Made by a program: the position numbers and the translations under genes. A model generated the notes under the pieces. The model saw only the letters and a program-made list of their open reading frames with translations, did no database searches and was not told where the DNA came from. This document shows positions 529 through 62,730 of a stretch of DNA of 64,000 nucleotides, piece after piece. The DNA comes from Octopus sinensis (lineage: Eukaryota): the NCBI RefSeq assembly GCF_006345805.1, contig NC_043011.1, positions 17,620,464-17,684,463 on the forward strand, given 5' to 3'. The number at the start of each line of letters is the position of its first letter. Position 1 is the stretch's first letter.

Positions 529-550
<22 letters not shown>

Positions 551-553
<3 letters not shown>

Positions 554-2640
554 AATAAAATAGAATATATGCATATATATAAACATATATGTACGTACCT
601 ACCTCTACATGTACATATACACGCATATATGTGTACAGGACACCAAAAAGACGTCGAACACATAGAGAGACGAAACACATAGACACAAACCAAGGAACAA
701 GACAAGCAAAAAAAGGAGAGATACAGGACAATAAGCACAACGAAAAATCCCCTTCTTCAGTCGCTAAGATTTCATCTACTAAACGTTTCGAAGGATAAAA
801 TCGAGACGTATACTTCGAAGAAAAATTCCTTCCCGCGAAAAGCAAATCAATTAAAATTCTGAGATCTTTTCGCAGAGGGGTAAAAAAAAAAGCAAGACGG
901 TAACGACAGTACAAACATATAAACAGTAAAAAATATATATATAAACAGTGGAAAAATAAATATATAACAGTGAGAGACAGGACAAGGAGAACAAGATAAG
1001 AAGGGCTGTTAACGCCAGACGAAAAAAGTATTGCAAACGCTGGATTATCGTGGAAGACGAGAGAGGGAAAATTTGTCGACCAGAAGCCTTACAAGGCGGG
1101 CGAGAAAAGACAGGATAGCAGTTACGACGGAAGTATCGTCGCAGATGGATGACGGGAATGGGGGAGGAGGAGCAAGAGGAAGAGAGAGAAGAAGGGGAAT
1201 GGTGTGAGGAGACCATGAAGAATGGTGAAAGGGAGAGAGAGAATGAAGAATGAGAGAGAGAGGAAGAGACAAGTTAAGTGAGGGAAAAAAAGACGAAAAA
1301 GGGAATGGGAGAGAAAGAAAGAAAGATGCAGAGTCGCGTGAGAGTTAATATCAAGGCTAACTTGATAAACAGAACAATCTTACTTAATAGGGTGCGTGCG
1401 TTTAGTCGTATAATATGTTAATAAAATTGAATATATGCATATATATAAAATATATGTACGTACCTACCTCTACATGTACATATACACGCATATATGTGTA
1501 CAGGACACCAAAAAGACGTCGAACACATAGAGAGACGAAACACATAGACACAAACCAAGGAACAAGACAAGCAAAAAAAGGAGAGATACAGGACAATAAG
1601 CACAACGAAAAATCCCCTTCTTCAGTCGCTAAGATTTCATCTACTAAACGTTTCGAAGGATAAAAGCGAGACGTATACTTCGAAGAAAAATTCCTTCCCG
1701 CGAAAAGCAAATCAATTAAAATTCTGAGATCTTTTCGCAGAGGGGTAAAAAAAAAAGCAAGACGGTAACGACAGTACAAACATATAAACAGTAAAAAATA
1801 TATATATAAACAGTGGAAAAATAAATATATAACAGTGAGAGACAGGACAAGGAGAACAAGATAAGAAGGACTGTTAACGCTAGACGAAAAAAGTATTGCA
1901 AACGCTGGATTATCGTGGAAGACGAGAGAGGGAAAATTTGTCGACCAGAAGCCTTACAAGGCGGGCGAGAAAAGACAGGATAGCAGTTACGACGGAAGTA
2001 TCGTCGCAGATGGATGACGGGAATGGGGGAGGAGGAGCAAGAGGAAGAGAGAGAAGAAGGGGAATGGTGTGAGGAGACCATGAAGAATGGTGAAAGGGAG
2101 AGAGAGAATGAAGAATGAGAGAGAGAGGAAGAGACAAGTTAAGTGAGGGAAAAAAAGACGAAAAAGGGAATGGGAGAGAAAGAAAGAAAGATGCAGAGTC
2201 GCGTGAGAGTTACTATCAAGGCTAACTTGATAAACAGAAAATCTTACTTAATAGGGTGCGTGCGTTTAGTCGTATAATATGTTAATAAAATAGAATATAT
2301 GCATATATATAAACATATATGTACGTACCTACCTCTACATGTACATATACACGCATATGTGTGTACAGGACACCAAAAAGACGTCGAACACATAGAGAGA
2401 CGAAACACATAGACACAAACCAAGGAACAAGACAAGCAAAAAAAAGGAGAGATACAGGACAATAAGCACAACGAAAAATCCCCTTCTTCAGTCGCTAAGA
2501 TTTCATCTACTAAACGTTTCGAAGGATAAAAGCGAGACGTATACTTCGAAGAAAAATTCCTTCCCGCGAAAAGCAAATCAATTAAAATTCTGAGATCTTT
2601 TTGCAGAGGGGTAAAAAAAAAAGCAAGACGGTAACGACAG
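551..2640 (-). repeat. Tandem array of an ~865-bp unit (~2.4 copies), probably Penelope-like pLTR/retrozyme-type
   Basis: Near-identical units start at 551, 1417 and 2281, and identical spurious ORFs recur at an 865-bp offset. A diverged solo copy lies in opposite orientation at ~21225-21660. Confidence 0.85.
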
Positions 2641-2657
2641 ATATATATATTATATAT

Positions 2658-2726
<69 letters not shown>

Positions 2727-11780: not shown

Positions 11781-12082
11781 TGTATCGTTGTTTTCAGATA
11801 TAATATATTAATTACATCAGAATGTAAATTTACATTAGACAATTGTAGGCAGTGTGCTGAAGAGGTCTGAAAATGGAAAAAGAAATAACAATCTAAATCT
11901 TCAAAACATTAATTCATCGAGATGATCATAGTTGGAATGTGTTTTAAACATAAAGACGCTTGGTCAGGATTAATGGAGGCTAAATTATAACATTAATACA
12001 CAGTAGATATCAAATTGTTCTCTTTTAGGCATTGAGGTTAAATTTACACGAAAGATTTTAAATTTTGTTTCGGGGGCAATAT

Positions 12083-12309
12083 ATATTTCTTTACTACCCA
12101 CAAGTGGCTAAACACAGAGGGGACAAACAAGGACAGATAAATGGATTAAGTCGATTACAACGACCGCAGTGCGTAACTGGTACTTAATTTATCGACCCCG
12201 AATGAAAGCAAAGTCGACCTCGGTGGAATTTGAACTCGGAACGTAACGACAGACGAAATACGGCTACGCATTTCGCCTGGCGTACTAACGTTTCTGCCAG
12301 CTCGCCGCC
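12083..12309 (-). mobile_element. tRNA-derived SINE, second family (Meta-domain-like core)
   Basis: Minus strand reads GGCGGCGAGCTGGCAGAAACGTTAG...GAGTTCAAATTCC (B box)...GCTTTCATTC-GGGGTCGATAAATTAAGTACCAG...GTGGGTAGTAAAGAAATA. Confidence 0.8.
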
Positions 12310-12505
12310 TTTTCTTTCGGGGACAATATATTTAATCATTCCTAGCCTTTGCTTATAGAACCAGTAACTGACCACGTCAGTCTTGAAGTGGGATTAATCT
12401 CTCATTCATTAAGTGCCATGGAAATATGTAATTATTATTCATTAAGTGCACAGTTTGTGCTACTACATACATGAGTACATCATGTAAGAGCAACACCAAC
12501 GCAAA

Positions 12506-21224: not shown

Positions 21225-21660
21225 ATTAATTTTACCTATTCTATTAATAGTGTTCGTAATACTTTATCTCGTTCAGCTTAATAGCCCTGCTTTTCTTGTT
21301 ATTCTCCTTGTCCTGTCTTTTACTGTTTATATTTTGTACTGTCGTTACTGTCCTGTTTTGTTACCATTTTTACCCCTCCGCAAAAATATCTCAAATTTTA
21401 TTTAATTTGCTTTTCGCGGGAAGGAAAGTTTCAAACTAAGATGCGTATCGCCTTCACCTTCGAAACGCAGAGTAGATGAAACCATGGCGACTGAAGAAGG
21501 GGAATATTCCTTGTGTTATTTGTCCTGTACTATATTTTTTCGTTGTTTAAGAAAAATGTCCAGTTCGTTGGTTTTGTGTTTATGTTTTCTTTTCTCATTG
21601 TGTTCTACGTTTTTTTGGTGTCCTGTACCCATATATGCATGTATATATACATTGAGAGTG
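21225..21660 (+). mobile_element. Diverged solo copy of the 865-bp repeat family
   Basis: Shares GTACTGTCGTTAC, TTTGCTTTTCGCGGGAAGGAA, CCTTCGAAACG, GCGACTGAAGAAGGGGA and TTTTTGGTGTCCTGTAC with the reverse complement of 551-2640. Confidence 0.8.
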
Positions 21661-22839: not shown

Positions 22840-23744
22840 AATTATATACATATTAAAAGTATGTCATAAAACTTATGAAATGTGTAGCTTAGGACGAAGT
22901 AATATTAAGCTGCGTACTTTGATGTGAAGCTACCCATAATATAGTTCTTAGCACCAACTTCTAAAGGCTGCGTAGCTATAAATGTAAGTTTTCATTACTT
23001 CCACAGTGGCTGGGGGTGGGAATGATCAACAAAACAAGTACATTCTCCTGAAAGTAATATATAAATATTCCATATTTTTGTTGTGCTGTATTTGTGTGCC
23101 TAACGTTCTATATTTGAGATCGGTAAGCCACAAAGATGTAACACTTAGAAACATGAAATTATAGAAGGTGATGCTAGTTTAATCTTTGTGCCCTCATTGA
23201 TTAAGTTTCTGGTTTATGTGAACTAAAATTCTACAGGATATTTCCCATGTTTTCTCTATATATTGTGTACTATATTATAAATATTTGCATCTGCATATCT
23301 GTTTCTCTGTCTGTCTCTTTCCACACACAAACATATGTATATGTAACAATATATTCTCTCTTTTACTCTCTTTTACTTGTTTCAGTCATTTGACTGCGGC
23401 CATGCTGGAGCACCGCCTTTAGTCGAGCAAATCGACCCCAGGACTTATTCTTTGTAAGCGCAGTACTTATTCTATCGGTCTCTTTTGCCGAACCGCTAAG
23501 TGACGGGAACGTAAACACATCAGCATTGGTTGTCAAGCAATGCTAGGGGGACAAACACAGACACACAAACACACACATACATATATATATATACACATAT
23601 ATACGACAGGCTTCTTTCAGTTTCCGTCTACCAAATCCACTCACAAGGCATTGGTCGGCCCGGGGCTATAGCAGAAGACACCTGCCCAAGATACCACGCA
23701 GTGGGACTGAACCCGGAACCATGTGGTTGGTTAGCAAGCTACTT

Positions 23745-25882
23745 TATTTCAAAACATTTGCCATAAAGGCAGTACACAGATTAAGTTAGCTTTGCGGGCT
23801 GGACGAGGACATTAATGAGGTGAATGATAATGAAAGAAAGATGATAAGGATGGGAGAAGACAGAAAGCGCCCGCCGACTTTTGCTTCTCTAAAACATTGT
23901 TCTTTTTAAAAAAGATAAACACAAAACGAGGTATTAAGCCTCTTACAATTTTTCCAATTTTTGGACTTAGTAGTCCATTATTAATACAAAACGAGGAATT
24001 AATCCTCTTACAATTTTTCAATTTTTGGACTTAAGTCCATTACTAATAATACATATCGTCCTCGAAATAGCTTGTGCCCGCGCCCTCCACCATCAACCAC
24101 GCCTCCCTCAGAACGTAGTCAAATTCCGAGTTCGCGTCGCCCGGGACCAAGTTATAATCTTCATTGAGCTCCTTTAGCCCTAGCGTCACGTCGAACTCCA
24201 CGGCCTCCATAGCTACCTGCGGAGGCCATTCGGGGTCCTGTGTGAAGGCTAAAGGTGCTCCCTTGTAGTGCTCTTCCATCACTTTTTCAATTTCTCCTCC
24301 TCTATAGAAGAGGACCAATACATTCAGTTCTTTCGTTGGCGGCACAGTTTCCGCCAACGGTATTCCTTCTCTTGTCGGTGGCACAACCCCAACCGACGTA
24401 GTTCCGCGACATTCCGGTGCTACACTGACAGCCGGTAATGTCCCGTTTTTCTTCCTCTTTTTCTTTTTTTTCCCTTTTCAACTGAGTGAGGTTGCGTCTC
24501 TTCCGTGGCTGGAAGATTCGCCTTCCTCTCCTCATCCCTATTATCCTTTGGTGAGCACCCATTGTTGCTCACCTTCCTCTTTCGGCCTCTGTTTGAGGAG
24601 TCCTCTGCTTTCTCGGCCGTTATCGTTCTCTCTTCTAGAGGGGTTTTACTTAACTGTTCCGGGATCCTATTTTGTTCCCGAGGACCGTTCTTCTTTATGT
24701 GGCCGGACTCCAAGCACCGATGACACTTAGGGGGGCGACGCTCAAGCATCACCGGGTACCTGCACCCGGCCATTTTCAAAAAATCTGGAAGAACCAGATT
24801 GGCTGATTGAGTCCACAGGGTCAAAATTGCTTTTGACCCAACCCAAGCAGCCGCAGGAAGAACTTTTACATTGAGGAGCCTAGTTTCGCTGTCACACAGA
24901 CCCCGGCGGATAGTCTCCTCTATCCACTCGGGTTCTATGTCGGGTGGCAGTCCGCAGATCCAAGCTTTCATCAATTTCTTTTTTTTGTACGTGGGCAGGA
25001 ATAAGATTTCCTTACCCTCCAAGGGTTTGCTAGCAAATTTGCAAGCCTCTTCAGGGTGTCAAATAGCAACCACACCTTTGCATATTTGACACCCCTGGAA
25101 ATGAAGTTAATTGTTGGCAAATACTCTTCCAACTCCTTTTCAATTGCCGTCTTTTCGAATAAGGCGATGGTGTCGAGTGCCTTGGAGTAGGTTCTCAACA
25201 CCACCGTCCTATCTTCACGGTCTTTTAACCACTGTTTAGGTGGTATGATTTCCCACTCCAAAAGTTTGTTATTTTTCATTGCCATGTTTTTTTAAAAATA
25301 TATTCAAATTAAACTCAAAAGCAGGAAGAAAAAGTTCAAAAGTCCAAATAAAATTTGATAGATTTTTGAAAAAACAAAAAGGAGAAAGCACAACAGAAGG
25401 GAAGAAATTAACGGAAAGTCGCAATAAAGAAAAAAAAACTTAAATGAAGTTCAAAAGAAAGTTAATAAACAGAAAAAACACAGCAAAAATATTCTGGCCT
25501 TGCGGTACTCCCGGCCTGGGTTGAACCTGGAACGCCGCAACTGCAACACAACCTCCACAAAAATGGGTCCGAAAGGTAATCCAATAGTGGCTTATTTTTA
25601 TAATTTTCTTGCGAAGTAGTAAAACACAAGCAAACAAATTAATTTTTGCGGAGGGGCTACGCCTCCTCAAAAAGCACAATTCTCACTAAAGAGTGAGACC
25701 TTAGACACGACAACAGGCAGAGAAATATATCTGAAGTAAAGTGAAGTTTATTACCCGCAAAAAAATATTAATGCTAGATAACGTTAACTGCTAAATAACA
25801 TTAAGCAAGCAATAAACTTCACTATGCTTCCAAAAATACAGAACGTCTTACCTGTCGCCGAGTCAAAAGTTCAACATTTCAC
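23745..25882 (-). mobile_element. Element A: ORF1-only non-LTR-type retroelement, 5'-truncated, inserted in SINE head
   Basis: Flanked by a GCTACTT duplication (23738-23744 / 25883-25889). It has a single gag-like ORF, no RT, and a 3' end GGCAAATGTTTTGAAATA. Confidence 0.9.
24043..25285 (-). pseudogene. Tx1/L1-type ORF1 protein (~414 aa; RRM-like + zinc knuckle), frameshifted in this assembly
   Basis: ORF pieces 24971-25285, 24420-25022 and 24043-24384. PDFLKMAGCRYPVMLERRPPKCHRCLESGHIKKNG (last Cys replaced by Gly). Both frameshifts lie in homopolymer runs. Confidence 0.85.
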
Positions 25883-26136
25883 GCTACTTACCACACAGCC
25901 ACTCCTGCGCCTATATGTATTTATAAAATATATATAAAATTATATATATAATATATATGAAATTGCATCTTTCACTCGGATTGAGGATGACATACAAGAG
26001 CGTGTCTGAGTGTATTCACAAATTGTTTGAAGCGTCACCTTACTCAACGCTAAAACAAATTGGTAATCGTTGAAAGGAAAGTGTGCTGCTCTCTACCACA
26101 GTCCGTTCCAAGAATCCAACCCCAAATATTTTGTTC

Positions 26137-26299: not shown

Positions 26300-27158
26300 A
26301 TGAACTTCCCGGACTAGTTAATAAAATAATAATAAAAGAAATTAATTATTAACCTAAGTTTTAACATAATTTCCTTCGAAATAGTCACCGATCGTTTCTG
26401 CCACTTTTGGAATTCGGGCTCGGAGTTGTTTTCCGTAAGCAGGTCGAGGACTTCCTGAGGTTCGCTCTGTATCTCGACAACTGTGTTAAAACAGCGACCT
26501 TTGAGCAGCATTCTTTATCTTGGGGGACAGATGGAAGTTTGCAAGTGGGAAATCTGGCGGATAGGGTGGATGCGGAAGCTATAACATGTTTTTGGCGAGA
26601 AACACAGGAGGGAGGAGAGCTCGGTGACAGGGTGCATTGTCGTCGTAAAGAATTCAATTTCTCGCGCTCCACAAATTCAGTCGCTTTCGCCAAATATCCT
26701 CCCTCAACGTTTCAAAACATCTCAGTGGAACTCGATTGACGGTCTTGCCCAGGGGGACGAATTTTCAATGCAAATGCGGACGTCGGAAAAAACGATGAGC
26801 ATGCCCTTGATTGGGCTGCGGCTCTGTCGTGCTTTCTCCGGCCGTGGAGATGAATGCCTCTTCTATTGTGACGACTGCTGCTTCGTCGCTATGGACTTGC
26901 CGAAGCATGCTCAATGCCGAAGCATGCACAATTTCACGATGGCTCTTTGTTTCTGTTCGTGACAGAACGGCAGACTACAGCATACACATGATCACAAAAA
27001 CACAAATTTTACAACTTGCGATGTAAACAGAACGCTGTTACTCCACACATTGCCTCATTAGAATCACTGCTAGCTCTCACTGCGCATGAAACCGTGTGCT
27101 GCCAGCTGTTGGCGAGCTACAAAACTAGTACTGGAACATTCTTGATGCAGCGTCGTAA
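26300..27158 (-). mobile_element. Internally deleted mariner transposon
   Basis: C-terminal LKGRCFNTVVEIQ...FQKWQKR, plus a region corresponding to HPPYSPDLAP-DF-LFP at ~26520-26580. Confidence 0.75.
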
Positions 27159-36590: not shown

Positions 36591-36817
36591 ATATTTATAT
36601 TACTCTTTTACTCTTTTACTTGTTTCAGTCATTTAACTGCGGCCATGCTGGAGCACCGCCTTTAGTCGAGCAAATCAACCCCGGGACTTATTCTTTGTAA
36701 GCCCAGTACTTATTCTATCGGCCTCTTTTGCCGAACCGCTAAGTGACGGGGACGTAAACACACCAGCATCGGTTGTTAAGCAATGCTAGGAGGACAAAGA
36801 CAGACACACAAATACAT

Positions 36818-36892
<75 letters not shown>

Positions 36893-37047
36893 TATATACA
36901 TATATACAACAGGCTTCTTTCAGTTTCCGTCTATCAAATCCACTCACAAGGCATTGGTCGGCCCGGGGCTATAGCAGAAGACACTTGCCCAAGATGCTAC
37001 GCAGTGGGACTGAACCCGGAACCATGTGGTTCGTTAGCAAGCTACTT

Positions 37048-39277
37048 TATTTCAAAACATATGCCATAAAGGCAGTACACAGATTAAGTTAGCTTTGCGG
37101 GGTGGACGAGGACATTAATGAGGTGAATGATAATGAAAGAAAGATGATAAGGATGGGAGAAGACAAAAAGCGCCCGCCGGCTTTCGCTTCTCTAAAACAT
37201 TGTTCTTTTTAAAGATAAACACAAAACGAGGTATTAAACCTCTTACAATTTTTCCAAATTTTGGACTTAGTAGTCCATTATTAATACAAAACGAGGTATT
37301 AATCCTCTTACAATTTTACAATTTTTGGACTTAAGTCCATTACTAATAATACATATCGTCCTTGAAATAGCTTGTGCCCGCGCCCTCCACCATCAACCAC
37401 GCCTCCCTCAGAACGTAATCAAGTTCCGAGTTCGAGTCGCCCGGGACCAAGTTATAATCTTCATTGAGCTCCTTTAGCCCAAGCGTCACGTCGAACGCCA
37501 CGGCCTCCACAGCTACCTGCAGAGGCCATTCGGGGTCCTGTGTGAAGGCTAAAGGTGCTCCCTTGTAGTGCTCTTCCATCACTTTTTCAATTTCTCCTCC
37601 CTTATAGAAGAGAACCAATACGTTCAGTTCTTTCGTTGGCGGAACAGTTCCCGCCAACGGTATTCCTTCTCTTGTCGGTGGCACAACCCCAACCGACGTA
37701 GTTCCGGGACATTCCGGTGCTACACTGACAGCCGGTAATGTCCCGTTTTTCTTCCTCTTTTTCCTTTTTTTTCCCTTTTCAACTGAGTGAGGGTACGTCT
37801 CCTCCGTGGCTGGAAGATTCGCCTTCCTCTCCTCATCCCTATTATCCTTTGGTGAGCACCCATTGTTGCTCACCTTCCTCTTTCGGCCTCTGTTTGAGGA
37901 GTCCTCTGCTTTCTCGGCCGTTGTCGTTCCCTCTTCTAGAGGGGTTTTACTTAACTGTTCCGGGATCCTATTTTGTTCCCGAGGACAGTTCTTCTTTATG
38001 TGGCCGGATTCCAAGCACCGATGACACTTAGGGGGGCGACCCTCAAGCATCACCGGGTACCTGCACCCGGCCATTTTCAAAAAATCTGGAAGAACTAGAT
38101 TGGCTGATTGGGTCCACAGGGTCAAAATTGCTTTTGACCCAAACCAAGCAGTCGCAGGAAGAACTTTTACATTGAGGAGCTTAGTTTCGCTGTCACACAG
38201 ACCCCGGCGGATAGTCTCCTCTATCCACTCGGGTTCTATATCGGGTGGCAATGCGCATATCCAAGCTTTTATCAATTTCTTTTTTTTTGTACGTGGGCAG
38301 GAATAAGATTTCCTTACCCTCCAAGGGTTTGCTAGCAAATTTGCAAGCCTCTTCAGGGGTGTCAAATAGCAACCACACCGTTGCATATTTGACACCCCTG
38401 GAAATGAATTTAATTGTTGGCAAATACTCTTCCAACTCCTCCTCAATTGCCGTCTTTTCGAATAAGGCGATGGTGTCGAGTGCCTTGGAGTAGGTTCTCA
38501 ACACCACCGTCCTATCTTCACGGTCTTTTAACCACTTTTTAGGTGGTATGATTTTCCACTCCAAAATTTTGTTATTTTTCATTGCCATGTTTTTTTTAAA
38601 ATATATACAAATTAAACTCAAAAAGCAGGAACAAAAAAGTTCAAAAGTTCAAATAAAATTTGATGGATTTTTGAAAAAACAAAAAGGAGAAAGCACAACA
38701 GAAGGGAAGAAATCAACGGAAAGTCGCAATAAAGAAAAAAACAAAAAGGGGGGGGTTAAATGAAGTTCAAAAGAAAGTTAATAAACAGAAAAAAACACAG
38801 CAAAAATATTCTGGCCTTGCGGTACCCCCGGCCTGGGTTGAACCTGGAACGCCGCAACTGCAACACAACCCCCACAAAAATGGGTCCGAAAGGTAATCCA
38901 ATAGTGGCTTACTTTTATAATTTTTTTGCGAAGTAGTAGTTTTCACAATTCATAAAAGTTCTTCACAGCACAATACAATTCTCACAATTACGTGAGAAAA
39001 ATATTTACTCACTTTATCGAAGACGGATACGCCCACAAAAATTTTCTCAGCTAGAAAAATATATTTGCCACATGTCGGCAGAATCAGAATTCTGAATCCA
39101 GTAGGACTTCCTGCCTGTAAAAAACAATTCTCAACAAAAACTCCCACTGGACCCAGAAAACAGAATCTTACCTTACATGGGGCTTCCAAAGTTTTCAATT
39201 CAAGACGGCTTCAATAGCACATCTTCACCGCTTCAGTGCCAAACACAACACTGACTCGCACATGCGCAGAAGCAACC
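37048..39277 (-). mobile_element. Element A': ORF1-only retroelement (A-type body, B-type 5' leader)
   Basis: Highly similar to element A over 37048-38937. Near-identical to 41049-41393 over 38932-39277. Confidence 0.9.
37343..38588 (-). CDS. Tx1/L1-type ORF1 protein (~415 aa; RRM-like + CCHC), one apparent frameshift
   Basis: MAMKNNKILEW...TVVLRTYSK...FLPTY, then a poly-T slip (~38280-38288), then LIKAWICALPPDI...EGRPPKCHRCLESGHIKKNCP...DDMYY*. Confidence 0.8.
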
Positions 39278-39293
39278 GTTAGCAAAGCTACTT

Positions 39294-41393
39294 TATTTTA
39301 TATTATTTGCCACTAGGGCAGCACACAGAGTAGTAGCTACAGGCTGGACAAGGACATTAATGGATGATGGTGGTGGTGGATGAAGATGGAGATGGGAGAA
39401 GTCGAAAGCGCCCGCCGACTATCGCTTCTCTAAAACAATGTTTCAATAAATACATTTAATAAAATGTTCACAATGATTCAAATTACATATTTTAGAGGAG
39501 GCAATAAACCTCCTCTTCAACATGTTTAAAAAATGTTCAACAATTCTCCTCGTCAGGTCCCCGAAGCAAATTGTCTTGCCGCCTGCAGACAACTCTGCGA
39601 CGACAAGTCGGGGCCTGCAAAGAGAAAAGTAAAATCTTTCCTCTCAAAGGTCTCTGCGACCGTTGACAAAATATCTTCCGTTACTTTTTCCGCAGCTACC
39701 AGCGGAGGCCATAACGGACTCCTTGAGCCGACCGTGCCCTTGCGTTCTCGGTCACCCAAGCCATTCAAAAACCTTTCCACCTCCTCTCCCTTGTGGTAAA
39801 GGAGGAGAAGCATCTCTTCTTCACAGGAAGGGACCTCACACTGCTCCGTCAGTGGCACACTTCCCACTGGCGGAGCCTTGTCCGCGGGTGGCACACATCC
39901 CACCCGCGGCTCCGTCGGCGACACAGAAACGTCAGTCATCCGACCTCTCCCTTTTCTCCTCCTTCTTTTGGGGGAGACTGCTGACCCAGGGGACTCCGTC
40001 ACCAGACACGGGGGATTGCTATCCCCCTCCGCCACCTGAGCGTTCTTTGGCGGGCAACCATTGTTGCTCGCCTGTCTCTTTCTTTTCGTGGAGGCAACCT
40101 CCTCCACGACTTCCACCGTCTCCCCCTCCAATGAGGGGGCGGCGGGCGCCTTTTCCCCTTTCGGATCCGGGGCACCACCACGGCCCCCGGGACAATTCCT
40201 CCTGATATGTCCGGGCTTCAGGCACAGGTGACACTTGGGGGGGGGCGACCCTCGAGTATCACCGGGTACCTGTGCCCAGCCATTCTCAGGAAGTCCGGGA
40301 ATTTCATTTCTCCCACGGCCACCGGTGTCCACAGGGTCAAAGTTGCCTTTGACCCCTCCCAGGCGACCGCGGGAGCCATTTTCACACTCAGTAGTCTGGG
40401 TCCGCTATCCCCCAGGCCTCGCCGGATGGTCTTCTCGATCCATTCCGCCTCCGTGCCCGGGGGCAGCCCACACACACAGGCTCTTTTTACTTTTCTGCCA
40501 CAATACGAGGGGAGGAACAAAATTTCCTCTCCCTCCAGTGGCTCGCTAGCAAATCTGCTAGCTTCCTCGGGGGTATCAAATAGCAACCGCACCGTTGCAA
40601 ATTTATTCCCCCGAGAAATAAACTTTATCGTTGGTAGGTGGTCCCCCAACTCTTTATCTATGGTGCTCCTGTCGAAGAGGGCAATAGCTCCACACGACCT
40701 AGAATAGGTTCGTAGGACCACCGTCCTCTTCTCAAGACTTTCAATCCACTGCTTGGGTGGGACAACCTCCCATTCCAAAGCAGTGGTTTCTTTTGTTGCC
40801 ATGTTTTTTTTTTGTTTTTTTTTGTTTTTTTAAAAATGTATTCAGAATAAAACTAAAAAAACGAGAAGAAAAGGAAATCCGAAGAAAGTCACAGTGAAAA
40901 AAGGAGAGAGTCAAATAAAGTTAAAAAGAAAGTAAAATAAAGTTAAAAAGAAAGTCAATAACACAGCAAAATCCTTTTGGCCATTTGGTACTCCCGGCCT
41001 AAATCGAACCAGGAACGCACAACTTCCACAAAAATTGGTGAAAAATTGGTAGTAGTTTTCACAATTCATAAAAGTTCTTCACAGCACAATACAATTCTCA
41101 CAATTACGTGAGAAAAATATTTACTCACTTTATCGAAGACGGATACGCCCACAAAAATTTTCTCAACGAGAAAAATATATTTGCCACATGTCGGCAGAAT
41201 CAGAATTCTGAATCCAGTAGGACTTCCTGCCTGTAAAAAACAATTCTCAACAAAAACTCCCACTGGACCCAGAAAACAGAATCTTACCTTACATGGGGCT
41301 TCCAAAGTTTTCAATTCAAGACGGCTTCAATAGCACATCTTCACCGCTTCAGTGCCAAACACAACACTGACTCGCACATGCGCAGAAGCAACC
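39294..41393 (-). mobile_element. Element B: ORF1-only retroelement
   Basis: Bounded by GTTAGCAAAGCTACTT at 39278-39293 and 41394-41409. Its 3' UTR motifs are shared with A and C. Confidence 0.9.
39553..40802 (-). CDS. Tx1/L1-type ORF1 protein (~416 aa), one apparent frameshift
   Basis: ORFs 40218-40802 and 39553-40332 join at a G10 run (40237-40246): FPDFLRMAGHRYPVILEGRPP / PKCHLCLKPGHIRRNCP. Confidence 0.8.
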
Positions 41394-41409
41394 GTTAGCA
41401 AAGCTACTT

Positions 41410-43437
41410 TATTTCATTTAATTTGCCACTAGGGCAGCACACAGAGTAGCTACGGGCTGGACAAAGACATTAATGGATGATGGTGGTGGTGGATGAAGAT
41501 GGTGATGGGAGAAGTCAGAAAGCGCCAGCCGACTTTTGCTTCTCTAAAACAATGTTCTTTTTTTTCAATAATTTACAAAATTTCAAAAATTACAAAAATT
41601 CAAAAAATTTTCACAAAAATTTCAATTTACAATTTACACTTTTAAATGTCTCTTCAGAGGCAATAAACCTCTCTCACAATGTAACACAATTACAATTTTA
41701 CGTTACCCGACCGATGAACTCTCTTGCTTTAATGACGCAATCGTCCATCGTCAGGCTTCCGCATACAGGTATGACTTGCAAGAGATCCTCCGGGAAAGAA
41801 TTCTCGATCCTGCACATATCCTTTTCGAGTAGGACCTCCGCAGCCAGCTGCGAAGGCCACTCGGGATACTCCATGCAGGACCGAAGTCCCTCCCATTGGT
41901 TTCTCTTCCTCATCCTACCTATTTCATTTTCTACAGTACCTCCTTTATGGAAGAGGACTACATAAAATTTCTCCGGCATCACAACCGCCGGAGGACACAT
42001 GGGAGACGCCGTCTGGGTGTTACAGTCCGCTGGTGGCGTCCCGTTCCTCTTTTTCTTTTTCTTTTTACGCTGGGCCTCGGGAGGTTGAGGTTCCGGTGCT
42101 ATACGCACCGGGTCCTCTTTTTCTTCCGCAGCCTCCGGTTCCTTTGGTGGGTCGCCATTGCTCCCCACTTTTCTTTTTCTTTTGGAGGAGGATTTTTCCC
42201 CCTCCTCACTTTGTTTCTCTCCCTCCATTGGTGGGGCAGGGAGAGGCTCTGATATTATCTTCTCCAGGATCCTACTCTGGTTCCTGGGGCAGTTTTTCTT
42301 AATGTGGCCGGTCTCCGAACACAGGTGACACTTGGGGGGGGGGGCGTCCCTCAAGCATCACCGGATACTTGGACCCGGCCATCTTCAAGAAGTCCGGCAA
42401 AACCAGACTCTTGGCCGACTGGGTCCACAGAGTCAAAGTAGCCTTTGCCCCTTCCCAGTCAGCCGCAGGCTGCATTCTCACGTTCAGGATCTTGGCGCTA
42501 CCACCACTCAGACCCCGGCGGATGGAATCTTCCACCCACTCGGGCTCGAAGCCGGGCGGCAGGCCGCAGACCCATAATCGTATCAATTTTTCCCCTTATA
42601 GCTTGGGAGAAACAGAATCTCTTCGCCCTCAATGGGCTTACTCGCGAAATCGCAAGCTGCTTTAGGGGAGTCAAACAGCAACCAAATCGTTGCTTATTTG
42701 GCTCCCCGTTGAATATGTTTAACGGCTGGCATATAGTCTGTCAGCTCGTTCATAATGGTGGCTTTCGGGAAAACCATTATGGTGTCGAGTGACCTCGAAT
42801 ATGTCCTCAACACCACGGTTTTGTCCTCGAGCTCAATTCCCACACAGTGAAATTCCTTGTCATAACGTAAGAAAAACAGTTCAAAATGTTACAAAATAAA
42901 TTAGACACAGAAAGGAGAATGAAAAAAGCAACAGAAGCGAAGAAATAAAATTAAAATGGCAGTTCAAAAAAAGTTCTTTTTTTTTTACAAATGAATGATA
43001 GACGGAGAAAGAGAGTTCAAATTCAGACAAAGGAATTAATTTTTCTTTTTTTTTTGTTCACTTTTTCGGCCGAAAATTGTATTCCAGGCCAAATACACTG
43101 TTGGTAAAACACCTTGGTAAAATAATCCTTGGTAAACCCCGTGGATAACACAATGACAATTTCAAAAATAATTTTTGCAGACGGACTACGCCGCCTCAAA
43201 AACACAATTTTCTTTACACTCGACAACAGGCAGAAAAATTACATCCGGAGCAAAGTGGAGCTTTATTATCTGCTAAAAAATATTTAATGCTGAAAAACAT
43301 TAATGCAAGTAATAAAACTTCACTTCGCTCGCAAAAACACAAAATGCCTACCTGCAGTCGAGTCGAAAGTTCAACAATTCACGTTGAAACAATGTGGCAT
43401 CTGGAGCAGCAAAATAACACGTCTAACTCAGACGAAG
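41410..43437 (-). mobile_element. Element C: ORF1-only retroelement
   Basis: Bounded by GTTAGCAAAGCTACTT at 41394-41409 and 43438-43453. Its 5' leader is homologous to that of element A. Confidence 0.9.
41698..42863 (-). pseudogene. Tx1/L1-type ORF1, several frameshifts
   Basis: EDKTVVLRTYSRSLDTI (~42775-42830), IRLWVCGLPPGFEPEWVEDSIRRGL...LPDFLKMAGSKYPVMLEGRPP, then a G-run slip, then KCHLCSETGHIKKNCP. The start position is approximate. Confidence 0.75.
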
Positions 43438-44119
43438 GTTAGCAAAGCTACTTACCACACAGCCACTCCTGCGCCTGTATGTATGTATACCTATAAAACA
43501 TAAGTATATAGAATGTGTCCTGAATCAAACAATCCTTCATAAATCAATCCCTTACAATATTAATGACTTAGAAGCAGCGAAATCAACAATCTACTTTCTG
43601 ACTTCTATCCCTCGAAACCAAGTAGGGATTGCAAACTATCATATAAGTTACATAGCCGTTACCCTGCGTATTAAATCACCAATTACAATTATTGAAACGT
43701 AACAGTACAGTCTTAAATCAATTTATAGCTGTACAGTTGATATAAACTATATCATATTCCGTTGTTGTCTAGAAATCCAAGATCATATGTTCATGTAGAA
43801 GCATGGATGCTTGCCAGGGAAATGACTTTTGGAATTCGGAACCATCATTTATGTAGAAGTCATCTAAACCAAACTTACACTGCGTGTCGCATATTGAATT
43901 TACAAAAGCATGGATTAAGTAAAGCCAAAGAGACTAAAACGCACACCTGCTTTAATCTATTCGATAAGAGTTATGTTTCAATCTTAACAAACCACAAATA
44001 GATATGGAGAGCATGCCTTGAACTACTGGATATACAGATCATTATTTTACGAAAAATAAAGTATGTATTATTAGAACTATACAGAAATTATTGCCCTTGA
44101 ATACTTATAACAACTGCGA

Positions 44120-46439: not shown

Positions 46440-47515
46440 CCAAATATATCAATTGATATTTTTTCACCTTTGTTACAATCAACTGAAATGTAAACAGTAT
46501 TCGAGCAGTTTTACTGTTCAACTTCAAAAAGAGACGTAAAGCAACTGAAACTGCTCGTGATATGAACGAAACCCTTGGAGAAAAAATGACCAGTGAATGA
46601 TCAGCTCAAAAATGGTTCAAACGATCTCACAGTGGAGACCTGAGCCTTGATGATCGTGACCGTAATGGACGCCCATCGGTCATCGATGACGGTCAATTAA
46701 AGACCGTCATTGTGAAAGAGCCACGTAAAAATCCCCGAGAACTGGCAAAAGAAACTGACTGCACCATTTGCATGCGACCGGAAAATCAAAAGAGTTTGAC
46801 AAATGTTGTGAATGAAAATCAGGAAAAGCGCAGAAACGAAATTTGCTCGCCGCTTCTTCTCTGTAACCAGACCAATCAATTTCTGTACAATAATAAAACA
46901 AGTACTTCGCAGTGGTTGGATCATAATGAAGCACCTTGAAAAATGCAAACCTTCCCTAAACCTAAGCTCTTCAAAAAAGAGGTTCTGGTGACTGATTGGT
47001 GGTGTAATGCTGGATTCATTCGCTATAACATCTTAAAACCCAGAAAACCATTACTGTAGAAACATATTCCTATGAAATTGCCAAAATGAACGAAATACTG
47101 CTACTTCTCCGTCCAAGACTGATCAACAGAAGGGGATCAATAATTCGTAATAACAATGATCGACCCCACGTTTCAATAATGACGCTGCAAAAGCTGAAGG
47201 AGCTTAGCTACAAATTCCCCACCCAGCTTGTTCCCCAGTCCTTTGTTTTACCGACTACCAGTTTTTCAATCACATTGTTGGTTTCTTGCAAGGGGAGTTC
47301 AAAAATTAAACCGAGGCTGATGGTACGTCCAAACAGTTCATCGGCTACAGAAATCCAGACTCCTATGTTAGAGGAATATATAAACTTGTAAGCCGTCGGG
47401 GAAAATGTCTTGATTGTAATGGTACTTACTGTGATGAATAAAATTTCTGCCGTGTTGAAATATATTGTGATGAATTTCAGGTTTCAAAATGTTGCTTAAT
47501 CTTTACTCAGCCTGA
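46440..47515 (+). mobile_element. Decayed mariner transposon
   Basis: IRAVLLFNFKKRRKATETARDMNETLG...KWFKRSHSGDLSLDDRDRNGRPS and LINRRGSIIRNNNDRPHVS...LQKLKELSY. The right TIR ends ...TTTACTCAGCCTGA-TA. Confidence 0.85.
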
Positions 47516-57204: not shown

Positions 57205-58220
57205 TCGTTGTTACAATCATCTGGACTGCCGAAGGTCAATATTCGAGCAATTTTGCTGTCTACTTCATAAAAGGACGTAAAGCAACTGAAACTGCTTGCG
57301 ATATGAACAAAACGTTTGGTGAGGAAATGATCAGTGAGTGGTCAGCTCGAAAATGGTTTAAACGATTTCGCATGGAGACCTGAGTTTTTGAAGATCGTGA
57401 GCGTAGTGGATGCCCATCAGTCGTCGATGGCAGTCAATTAAAGAACGTCATTGACAGAGATCCACATAAACCACTCAAGAACTGGCAAAATAACATCGAG
57501 TTATTCAGAAAACTGCCTGCAACCATTTGCATGTCCTTGTAAAATCAAAAAGGCTCGACGAATTGATACCACACTATTTAAATGAAAGTCAGAAAATGCG
57601 CAGATATTAAGTTTGCTTGTCGCTCTTTCCCCTTAACCAGAACGAACCCATTTCTCGACCGTATTGTAACTTGCTATGAAAAACGGATTCTGTACAGTAA
57701 TAAAAACAAACGTTCTTCACAGTGGTTGGTGCAAAATGAAGCACCGAAAACTGTCCCTAAACCCGAGCTCTTCAAAAAGAAGGTTATAGTGATTGCTTTG
57801 TTGTGTACTGTTGGAATCATTCACTATAACTTCTTAAAACCCGGAAGAACAATTACTGCAGAAACATATTGCTATGAATTTGTCAAAATCAACGAAAAAC
57901 CGCCACTCCTCCGACACGGACTGGTCAATAGAAGTTGAGGAATTTTGGCTACCAAGTTTTTCCACCCCAGATTATTCTTCAGACATTTCTTCTACCGACT
58001 ACCACTTTTTCAAGCAACTTGATGGTTTCCTGCGAGAGAAGGAGTTTAAGCATCAAGCTGATGCTGAAAGTACCTTCAAAGAGTTCATCAGCTCCAGATT
58101 TTATATATTACCGGAATAAACAAACTTGTAACTCGTTGGTAAAAGTGTGTCGATGGCAATGGTACTTGCTTTGATGAATAAATTTTCCGCATTGTTGAAA
58201 TATATTGTGATCAATTTATG
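57205..58220 (+). mobile_element. Decayed mariner transposon (same family as 46440-47515)
   Basis: NIRAILL..FIKGRKATETACDMNKTFGEE..SEWSARKWFKRFR, FLDRIVTCYEKRILYSN, and PDYSSDISSTDYHFFKQLDGFL. Confidence 0.9.
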
Positions 58221-62155: not shown

Positions 62156-62467
62156 CTATATTCAATAATTTTACTACTTAGATTTACAGAAAGGGCCTTT
62201 CATTTTGTTGAGTAGGAACATGCCCGTTACATTAAAAACATATGTGAATGTTACCTACACAAATATGATATATACTACACAAATATAATAGTTCTATCGT
62301 TGTCGAAACGCAAAATATTGCCTTAAGAAAGGTGTCATAATGTTATGCAACATTTTCGATTCGAATGTGATAGTTGATGCGAACATCAAACAAGTAAACA
62401 TCGTTGACGTATATTTAAACCAAAGACGATATCATACAACATTTAGGCATCCCTATGTTATGACACA

Positions 62468-62697
62468 AGGCGCCGAGCTGGCTGAAACGTTAGCGCCACG
62501 GGCGAAATGCTTAGCGGCATTTGTCTGTCGTTACGTTCTGAGTTCAAATTTCGCCGAGGTTGACATTGCCTTTCATCCTTTCGGGGTCGATAAATTAAGT
62601 ACCAGTTATGCACTTGTTCGATATAATCGACTTAATCCCTTTATCTGTCCTTGCTTGTCCCCTCTGTGTTTAGCTCCTTGTGGGTAGTAAAGAAATA
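62468..62697 (+). mobile_element. tRNA-derived SINE, second family, complete
   Basis: GGCGCCGAGCTGGCTGAAACGTTAG...GAGTTCAAATTTCG...GCCTTTCATCCTTTCGGGGTCGATAAATTAAGTACCAG...GTGGGTAGTAAAGAAATA. Confidence 0.85.
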
Positions 62698-62730
62698 TAT
62701 ATTATGACACCACACACACACGTATATACA

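What the first reader, a model, noticed from the sequence alone, without database searches (positions are those of the whole stretch)
23730..25913. Independent insertion at the identical SINE position supports sequence-specific targeting by TPRT
Seen: element A abuts the same GTTAGCAAGCTACTT site, with its 3' junction at exactly the position used in the array. Its 5' end is about 60 bp shorter than the homologous leader of C, and the duplication is only GCTACTT. DNA outside the two host SINEs is unrelated, so this is not a segmental duplication. Inference: a fixed 3' end with a variable, truncated 5' end is the signature of target-primed reverse transcription. The insertion lies between the SINE A and B boxes and should disable its Pol III promoter.
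Basis: partly seen in the sequence, partly recalled or inferred. Interest (0 to 1): 0.75.

Follow-up and report, generated by a model that had tools for sequence, protein, structure and literature searches.

The report
Half-LINEs homing into one SINE site
In this animal genome, likely an octopus, a 2.1-kb jumping element with no copying enzyme of its own sits at the same base of a very common short repeat as over a thousand relatives, likely inserted one at a time by a partner retrotransposon's enzyme, and these elements pile up at used sites far more often than chance.

Summary
Observation confirmed, with one correction. Element A (23745-25882, minus strand) is an ORF1-only retroelement inserted between the A- and B-box-like motifs of a very abundant SINE. 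An autonomous L1/Tx1-group partner (endonuclease, reverse transcriptase) shares its 3' end and target. Of 60 copies picked by element 3' end alone, 60 abut the same SINE base (one with an extra T); about 1,450 junctions are estimated genome-wide. Host-SINE and insert distances are not positively correlated, so insertions were independent. TPRT is well supported: fixed 3' end, 12 truncated 5' ends, variable duplications. Correction: A's 7-bp duplication is atypical. The commonest duplication in truncated copies is 15-16 bp, and most young copies have precise 5' ends carrying a family-specific copy of the target (36 of 40 informative loci). Loss of Pol III activity is inferred and touches about 1-2% of SINE copies. 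Unexplained: about 20% of element 5' ends have another element stacked upstream, against under 1% site occupancy. This scan reported the same system on other DNA (e1-9827266, e1-8665859, e1-8665938). Nine paper searches found no SINE-head-targeting LINE. New variant of a known kind.

The parts
23745..25882 (-). Element A: ORF1-only non-autonomous retroelement, missing the first 55 nt of its subfamily's leader
24043..25285 (-). ORF1 remnant (414 aa in intact copies; RRM-like region plus zinc knuckle); two frameshifts in A, and the last knuckle Cys reads Gly
23730..23744 (-). Target sequence at the invariant 3' junction (host copy)
25883..25889 (-). 7-bp 5' copy of the target
25890..25911 (-). 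Host SINE 5' head, with A-box-like motif at 25891-25901 (consensus recalled)
23360..23744 (-). Host SINE body and tail, with B-box-like motif at 23703-23713 (consensus recalled)
36601..37047 (-). Body of the SINE that hosts the array
37048..39277 (-). Array element B: same ORF1 and 3' end as A, different leader
39278..39293 (-). Array junction 1: target copy with a third T
39294..41393 (-). Array element C: ORF1-only; its leader differs from B's at 2 of about 355 nt
41394..41409 (-). Array junction 2: target copy with a third T
41410..43437 (-). Array element D: ORF1-only; leader homologous to A's (72%)
43438..43475 (-). 5' target copy (43438-43453) and SINE head of the array

Best explanation
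Element A is an ORF1-only relative of an L1/Tx1-group LINE that sits at one fixed base in the head of an abundant SINE, likely inserted independently by target-primed reverse transcription using the endonuclease and reverse transcriptase of an autonomous partner that shares its 3' end and target. Inferred steps: the partner nicks the bottom strand between GTGTGGT and AAGTAGC and primes on the RNA 3' end; the top strand is normally cut about 15 nt downstream; full-length RNA begins inside the donor's own 5' duplication, so the finished cDNA anneals to that overhang and gives a precise junction bearing the family's version of the target. Incomplete cDNAs join with 15-16 bp, shorter or no duplication, and A is likely one of these. 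Each full-length insertion leaves a usable target at its 5' end, where further elements stack.
For: Shown: 30 of 30 autonomous and 30 of 30 A-family 3' ends, chosen without reference to the flank, abut the same SINE base; one has an extra T and two are a tandem duplicate of one locus. 27 of the first 30 hits of a 14-mer junction pattern are real junctions, out of 1,612 hits. Partner ORF2 has Exo_endo_phos, RVT_1 and zf-RVT and matches L1 ORF2 at 5e-57 against R2 at 1e-20. The two ORF1s are homologous (27%, E 4e-21). Mantel SINE vs insert: rho 0.016, p 0.41 (28 of 32 loci) and rho -0.009, p 0.48 (24 of 30); inserts under 1% apart sit in SINEs 4-12% apart; positive controls within the SINE give rho 0.75 and 0.48. 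Occupancy is 0.70% and 0.88% in the two SINE subfamilies. A head variant tracks the host body, not a fixed donor (p 0.014). Twelve truncated copies still joined to a SINE head: 5 with 15-16 bp, 2 with 7 bp (A included), 2 with 1-2 bp, 3 with none or a small target loss. Two 3' ends carry a repeated AAATA. Of 88 full-length solo loci, 40 are informative: 36 family-type 5' copy, 2 host-type, 2 ambiguous.
Against: No biochemical test of nicking or priming. None of the 14 loci checked had a fully open ORF2. A's junction could be a later deletion. Most young copies are full length (33 of 40; 34 of 37), unusual for this group by my recall. The RNA 5' end is inferred, not seen. The close-subfamily Mantel test for half elements was negative (rho -0.46, n 18), which I cannot explain, and the insert-half control for autonomous copies was weak (p 0.06). 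Which autonomous subfamily moves A is not identified. Simple re-use of regenerated sites does not explain the size of the stacking excess.
Confidence: 0.88

Rival explanations
1. SINE and insert moved together as one composite unit (retrotransposed or duplicated as DNA), so the shared position reflects one ancestral insertion.
For: A and B are 3.3% apart and their host SINEs 4.7% apart. One locus (L081) is a tandem DNA duplication of the composite.
Against: No positive SINE/insert correlation; many unrelated insert families and truncation points at the same base; both SINE subfamilies are occupied at similar rates; eight sampled inserts are closer to A than B is.
Confidence: 0.03
2. TPRT is right for the family, but A was inserted full length and later lost 55 nt by a microhomology deletion, so A itself is not evidence of truncation.
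For: Most A-leader copies are full length; 15-16 bp is the commonest duplication in truncated copies; A's junction has a 1-nt microhomology; L081 shows a deletion across a 5' junction.
Against: A truncated autonomous copy (L034) ends at the same +7 position, which two random deletions would seldom share.
Confidence: 0.3
3. A recombinase or a Dada-type DDE transposase places the elements, giving precise ends.
For: Precise 5' ends in most copies; Dada makes short duplications in tRNA genes near the A box (PMC3706591, PMC8869645; passages).
Against: The partner encodes endonuclease plus RT; Pfam shows no recombinase or transposase in either ORF; duplications range from none to 16 bp; 5'-truncated copies with intact 3' ends exist.
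Confidence: 0.02
4. Arrays form in one event: the finished cDNA ends in the same bases as the nicked target primer, and the RT jumps onto a second RNA, mostly an ORF1-only one, before the insertion is sealed.
For: 22 stacked junctions, all real, against about 90 head junctions for the same leaders; 12 of 22 C-type ends are stacked (7 of 17 without the loci the pattern came from); arrays of three or more recur; near-identical C copies lie upstream of different neighbours, so they are not fixed dimers. Template jumping is reported for R2 (PMC11371274, passages).
Against: Exact junctions would need RNA starting at the first base of the duplication. The age comparison was inconclusive. In the window, C's leader looks copied from B in place and all three junctions share a third T, which fits sequential events or local conversion.
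Confidence: 0.25

Closest known systems
Tx1-Mar LINEs and SINEU-3 of crocodilians (PMC4494074; sections 3, 14, 15 and passages read)
   Same: Tx1-group elements and non-autonomous riders inserted into another transposable element; 16-bp duplication; tandem copies separated by the duplication.
   Different: The target there is a Mariner DNA transposon and preference is 13-90%; here it is one base in a SINE head in 60 of 60, the riders keep ORF1, and the 5' target copy follows the element family.
Tx1L in Tx1D, Keno, Kibi, Koshi, Dewa (as summarised in PMC4494074 and PMC3706591; the original papers were not held)
   Same: Sequence-specific endonuclease-type non-LTR elements in repeated targets.
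   Different: Targets are a piggyBac element, U2 genes, microsatellites and tRNA spacers, not a SINE head. Clade placement next to them was not tested.
HAL1, half-L1 (PMC5753468, passages; the original paper was not held)
   Same: Non-autonomous, encodes only ORF1.
   Different: HAL1 is mammalian and not described there as target-specific or array-forming.
R2 elements with target sequence at the RNA 5' end (PMC3774820, abstract)
   Same: Target sequence on the cDNA end is proposed to anneal and give uniform 5' junctions.
   Different: R2 uses upstream rRNA sequence cut by a ribozyme; here the carried sequence is the duplicated, downstream part of the target and renews the site.
R1 tandem arrays and double insertions in Drosophila (bioRxiv 10.1101/158386, passages)
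   Same: Head-to-tail copies separated by a duplicated target.
   Different: Here arrays mix different families and autonomous with non-autonomous elements, and are far more frequent than site occupancy predicts.
Dada DNA transposons (PMC3706591, PMC8869645; passages)
   Same: Insertion near the A box of tRNA-type genes, short duplication, tandem copies.
   Different: DDE transposase, no RT, no 5' truncation; neither paper mentions SINE targets.

Membership tests
Endonuclease-type non-LTR retrotransposon, L1/Tx1 group (autonomous partner) | ORF2 with APE-like endonuclease, RT and C-terminal zinc-binding domain | tested here: met
   Pfam Exo_endo_phos 6.8e-12, RVT_1 2e-27, zf-RVT 8.7e-9, seen over two natural copies
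Endonuclease-type non-LTR retrotransposon, L1/Tx1 group (autonomous partner) | ORF2 closer to L1 than to R2 among solved structures | tested here: met
   L1 ORF2 5e-57, R2 1e-20; endonuclease hits were L1-type apart from one exonuclease III
Endonuclease-type non-LTR retrotransposon, L1/Tx1 group (autonomous partner) | Fixed 3' end, 5' truncations, variable target duplication | tested here: met
   truncated copies are a minority among young copies
Tx1 clade | RT phylogeny within Tx1 rather than L1 proper | not testable with these tools
   No named Tx1 reference came back; the label Tx1 rests on recall and on ORF layout
Tx1 clade | ORF1 with CCHC zinc knuckle and RNA-binding region | tested here: met
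   zf-CCHC 2e-5 in the partner, below cut-off in the half element; Atlas neighbours are CCHC, RRM and ZCCHC3-type clusters. This feature as typical of Tx1 is recalled.
Target-specific family by Kojima's criterion | One sequence type in over 20% of flanks (PMC4494074) | tested here: met
   60 of 60; 21 of 22 for the C type counting stacked junctions
HAL1-like half element | Encodes ORF1 only, with the LINE's 3' end | tested here: met
   414-aa ORF in intact copies, no RT; last 30 nt or so align with the partner's
HAL1-like half element | Derived by internal deletion from a given autonomous element | tested here: inconclusive
   ORF1s are only 27% identical; no direct parent found
tRNA-derived SINE (host) | tRNA-like head with A and B boxes | tested here: inconclusive
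   Box-like motifs 32 nt apart by recalled consensus; Rfam found no tRNA match; ARAGORN at a lowered threshold gave inconsistent calls with no shuffle control
Dada DNA transposon | DDE transposase and fixed 6-7 bp duplication | tested here: not met
SINE/LINE partner pair with shared tail | Host SINE tail homologous to the LINE 3' end | tested here: not met
   Host tail scores 14; a different SINE's tail scores 54 against the same LINE end

The most novel reading that the evidence does not exclude
The element carries its own primer. Its RNA starts with a copy of the target, so the completed cDNA ends in the same bases as the nicked site and primes the next RNA directly, building mixed arrays in one reaction; ORF1-only elements live mainly as second riders on this jump. 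A 3'-UTR motif complementary to the target (AAGCTACTT in the partner) would pair with the RNA's own ends and favour full-length copies.
Probability: 0.2. Interest if true: 0.8.

Novelty: new variant of a known kind. Interest (0 to 1): 0.52.

Why it matters
It extends the known targets of sequence-specific LINEs to one base in a SINE head, a safe site present in over 67,000 exact copies. It shows a whole lineage (partner subfamilies 68-98% alike in ORF2, several ORF1-only families) keeping one target. It offers an endonuclease-RT with a short, strict target for study, and a natural test of how 5' junctions form and why arrays arise. It is unlikely to restrain the SINE, since only about 1-2% of copies are hit. 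The scan has already described the system on other DNA, so the gain here is the independence test, the duplication lengths and the stacking figures.

Tried and rejected
Composite movement, recombinase and Dada models: rejected (see rivals). Fixed read-through dimers as the source of arrays: rejected, because near-identical C copies have different neighbours. Preference for the SINE subfamily that matches the element's 5' copy: not found, 0.70% against 0.88%. Dating stack members by private substitutions: inconclusive. Expression: no RNA holder listed on record; contigs of four runs only guessed to be RNA cover parts of the element and show neither starts nor strand; not used as evidence. Contigs of four runs labelled as four or fewer other samples cover 28-30 of 30 bins, but no listed piece bridges the 3' junction by the tool's 31-letter rule. 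Spliced leaders: GT-type donor-like sites were seen but no spliced copy appeared in 16 aligned A leaders. Clade naming by database names failed. The pattern held a private variant and hit only the window. The reversed control gave 908 hits, so the estimate of about 1,450 rests on inspection of 30 loci, all on one contig. Searches used an offset one base too far 5'; lengths shift by one and the duplex test used a target shifted by one base. A shared rare base at +2 in two B-leader 5' copies (L024, L223) may be chance and was not used. No fold or complex job was sent.

Full report
What is there. The window is G000:C15:17620464-17684463 of a 2.72-Gb genome; protein hits are named from Octopus sinensis and Argonauta, so an octopus is likely. 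A SINE on the minus strand (head 25890-25911, body 23360-23744) is split by a 2.14-kb element, A. A second copy of the SINE 13 kb away holds three elements head to tail, here called B, C and D. All four read on the minus strand and end in ...AATA directly before AAGTAGCTT.

What A is. Intact genomic copies have one 414-aa ORF with a zinc knuckle and no RT; Atlas neighbours of a stored homologue are CCHC and RRM-type proteins. A's own ORF is frameshifted twice. An open frame upstream of copy L018 led to a 5.45-kb element with ORF1 and an ORF2 holding endonuclease, RT and zf-RVT domains, closest to L1 ORF2 among solved structures. It sits at the same SINE base, shares the last 30 nt or so with A, and its ORF1 is homologous. 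None of 14 loci checked had ORF2 fully open. Placement in the Tx1 clade is likely by recall but was not tested, since no named reference was returned.

Target specificity. Patterns made of the element end alone gave 87 autonomous and 151 A-family copies; the first 30 of each are all followed by the SINE at the same base, one with an extra T, and two of the 60 are a tandem duplicate. Of the 30 best matches to A, 29 have this junction and one (L002) has lost it by deletion. A 14-mer junction pattern gave 1,612 hits; 27 of the first 30 are real, from many subfamilies, so about 1,450 (the reversed control was high, 908). Exact empty sites number 26,606 and 40,647 in two SINE subfamilies, against 187 and 362 occupied. 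One C-type copy of 22 is followed by six target bases and then unrelated DNA.

Independence. Distances between host SINEs do not follow distances between inserts: rho 0.016 for 28 half-element loci (4 of 32 dropped: one duplicate, three with short SINE parts) and -0.009 for 24 autonomous loci (6 of 30 dropped: one truncated, five with short SINE parts). Two parts of the same SINE do correlate (rho 0.75, 0.48), so the test has power; the insert-half control was 0.54 and 0.30 (p 0.06); a close subset of half elements gave an unexplained negative value, -0.46. Inserts under 1% apart lie in SINEs 4-12% apart. A's nearest insert is on another contig at 1.7%, while B is at 3.3%, and A and B have unrelated leaders. 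The composite did not move as a unit, apart from one local duplication.

TPRT signature, corrected. Among 40 regions fetched by 3' junction, 33 are full length, 3 are truncated at a SINE head and 4 are rearranged; among 37 more, 34 are full length; in the broader sample, 7 of 27 are truncated at a head within 1.5 kb. In the 12 truncated copies still joined to a head, the duplication is 15-16 bp in 5 (one of them with a damaged 3' copy), 7 bp in 2 including A, 1-2 bp in 2, and absent in 3. So the top-strand cut is most likely near +15, and A is an atypical join or a later deletion. In full-length copies the 5' copy beyond +9 follows the element family, not the host: 36 of 40 informative loci among 88, with 2 host-type and 2 ambiguous (counted by hand). 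A variant in the head upstream of the junction follows the host SINE. The simplest reading is that the RNA starts inside the donor's duplication and its cDNA anneals to the target overhang, as proposed for R2 with upstream rRNA sequence (PMC3774820, abstract). This is inferred.

Stacking. For leaders covered by one pattern, 22 junctions have another element upstream (all 22 real) against 112 head hits of which 24 of 30 inspected are real: about 20% stacked, where occupancy is 0.7-0.9%. In the broad sample 3 of 27 are stacked. C-type ends are stacked in 12 of 22 (7 of 17 after removing the five hits in loci the pattern came from), against 0 of 60 sampled A-family and autonomous ends, though three such cases exist outside that sample. 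Neighbours differ even for near-identical C copies, which excludes amplified dimers. Preferential re-targeting and template jumping both remain open (one search did not separate them). In the window, B's and C's leaders differ at 2 of about 355 nt where others differ by 5-20, which suggests local copying and a route to the leader swaps seen across families.

Pol III. The insertion puts about 2,180 nt between the box-like motifs, normally 32 nt apart, and a run of four T lies 21 nt into A. By general knowledge of internal Pol III promoters this should silence the copy. It was not tested and concerns about 1-2% of copies. The host SINE does not share the LINE tail; a different SINE does, so the targeted SINE is probably not this LINE's passenger.

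A lead. 89 of 106 distinct 3' ends carry AGCTA within the last 120 nt. Pairing with the target beats shuffles at p 0.002-0.008 in four autonomous types and 0.03-0.08 in half elements, but 5 of 96 other windows of the autonomous copy pair as well or better. The ends share ancestry, so this is a lead only.

Known context. Tx1 families that target other transposons, tandem copies with a 16-bp duplication, ORF1-only HAL1 and double insertions are in print (PMC4494074 sections 3, 14, 15; PMC5753468, 10.1101/158386, PMC11371274, PMC5035012 passages). Nine searches and passages of two cephalopod repeat papers (PMC13282606 part 1 of 3 and passages; PMC8967140 passages) showed no LINE aimed at a SINE head; Repbase, subscription papers and supplements were not seen. 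Earlier notes of this scan describe the same system on other DNA; I saw them after finding the partner and tested the main claims here. Verdict: real, independent, TPRT-type targeting by a LINE and its half elements; new variant of a known kind; interest 0.52.

Noticed in passing
L083 (G000:C2:197419100-197426900) and window near 12078-12311, 62467-62703: A second abundant SINE ends in a tail homologous to the LINE's 3' end and forms head-to-tail chains; none of 30 junction hits inspected showed it at this target.
   Followed up: partly
window 38935-39293 and 41051-41409: Leaders of B and C differ at 2 of about 355 nt, far less than other copies of that leader; likely local conversion or a long duplication.
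   Followed up: partly
L076, L080, L086, L087, L224, L237: Mosaic half elements: leaders, ORF parts and 3' ends are swapped among families, often at shared breakpoints.
   Followed up: partly
L270 (G000:C8:1093000-1099000): RT-like sequence 64-70% alike to the partner is fused to the last 1 kb of a C-type element, which ends at six target bases followed by unrelated DNA.
   Followed up: no
L081 (G000:C2:180403500-180413200): A 3.9-kb tandem duplication of flank, insert and SINE, with a deletion across the 5' junction.
   Followed up: partly
L315: An empty SINE with the target region itself duplicated in tandem (about 21 nt), possibly an aborted insertion.
   Followed up: no
leaders of A, B, the E type and the partner (e.g. 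window about 25850): Each leader has a GTAAG or GTAGG donor-like site within about 130 nt of its 5' end; possible 5'-UTR intron.
   Followed up: partly
window 542-2669: Tandem repeat of about 865 bp in two and a half copies, 96-98% alike, with a diverged relative at 21249-21658.
   Followed up: no
window 46470-47477 and 57208-58217: Two diverged copies of a roughly 1-kb element whose translation looks Mariner-like by eye (recalled, not searched).
   Followed up: no
window 26365-26962: Open frames just beyond the host SINE head that look like part of another mobile element; not examined.
   Followed up: no
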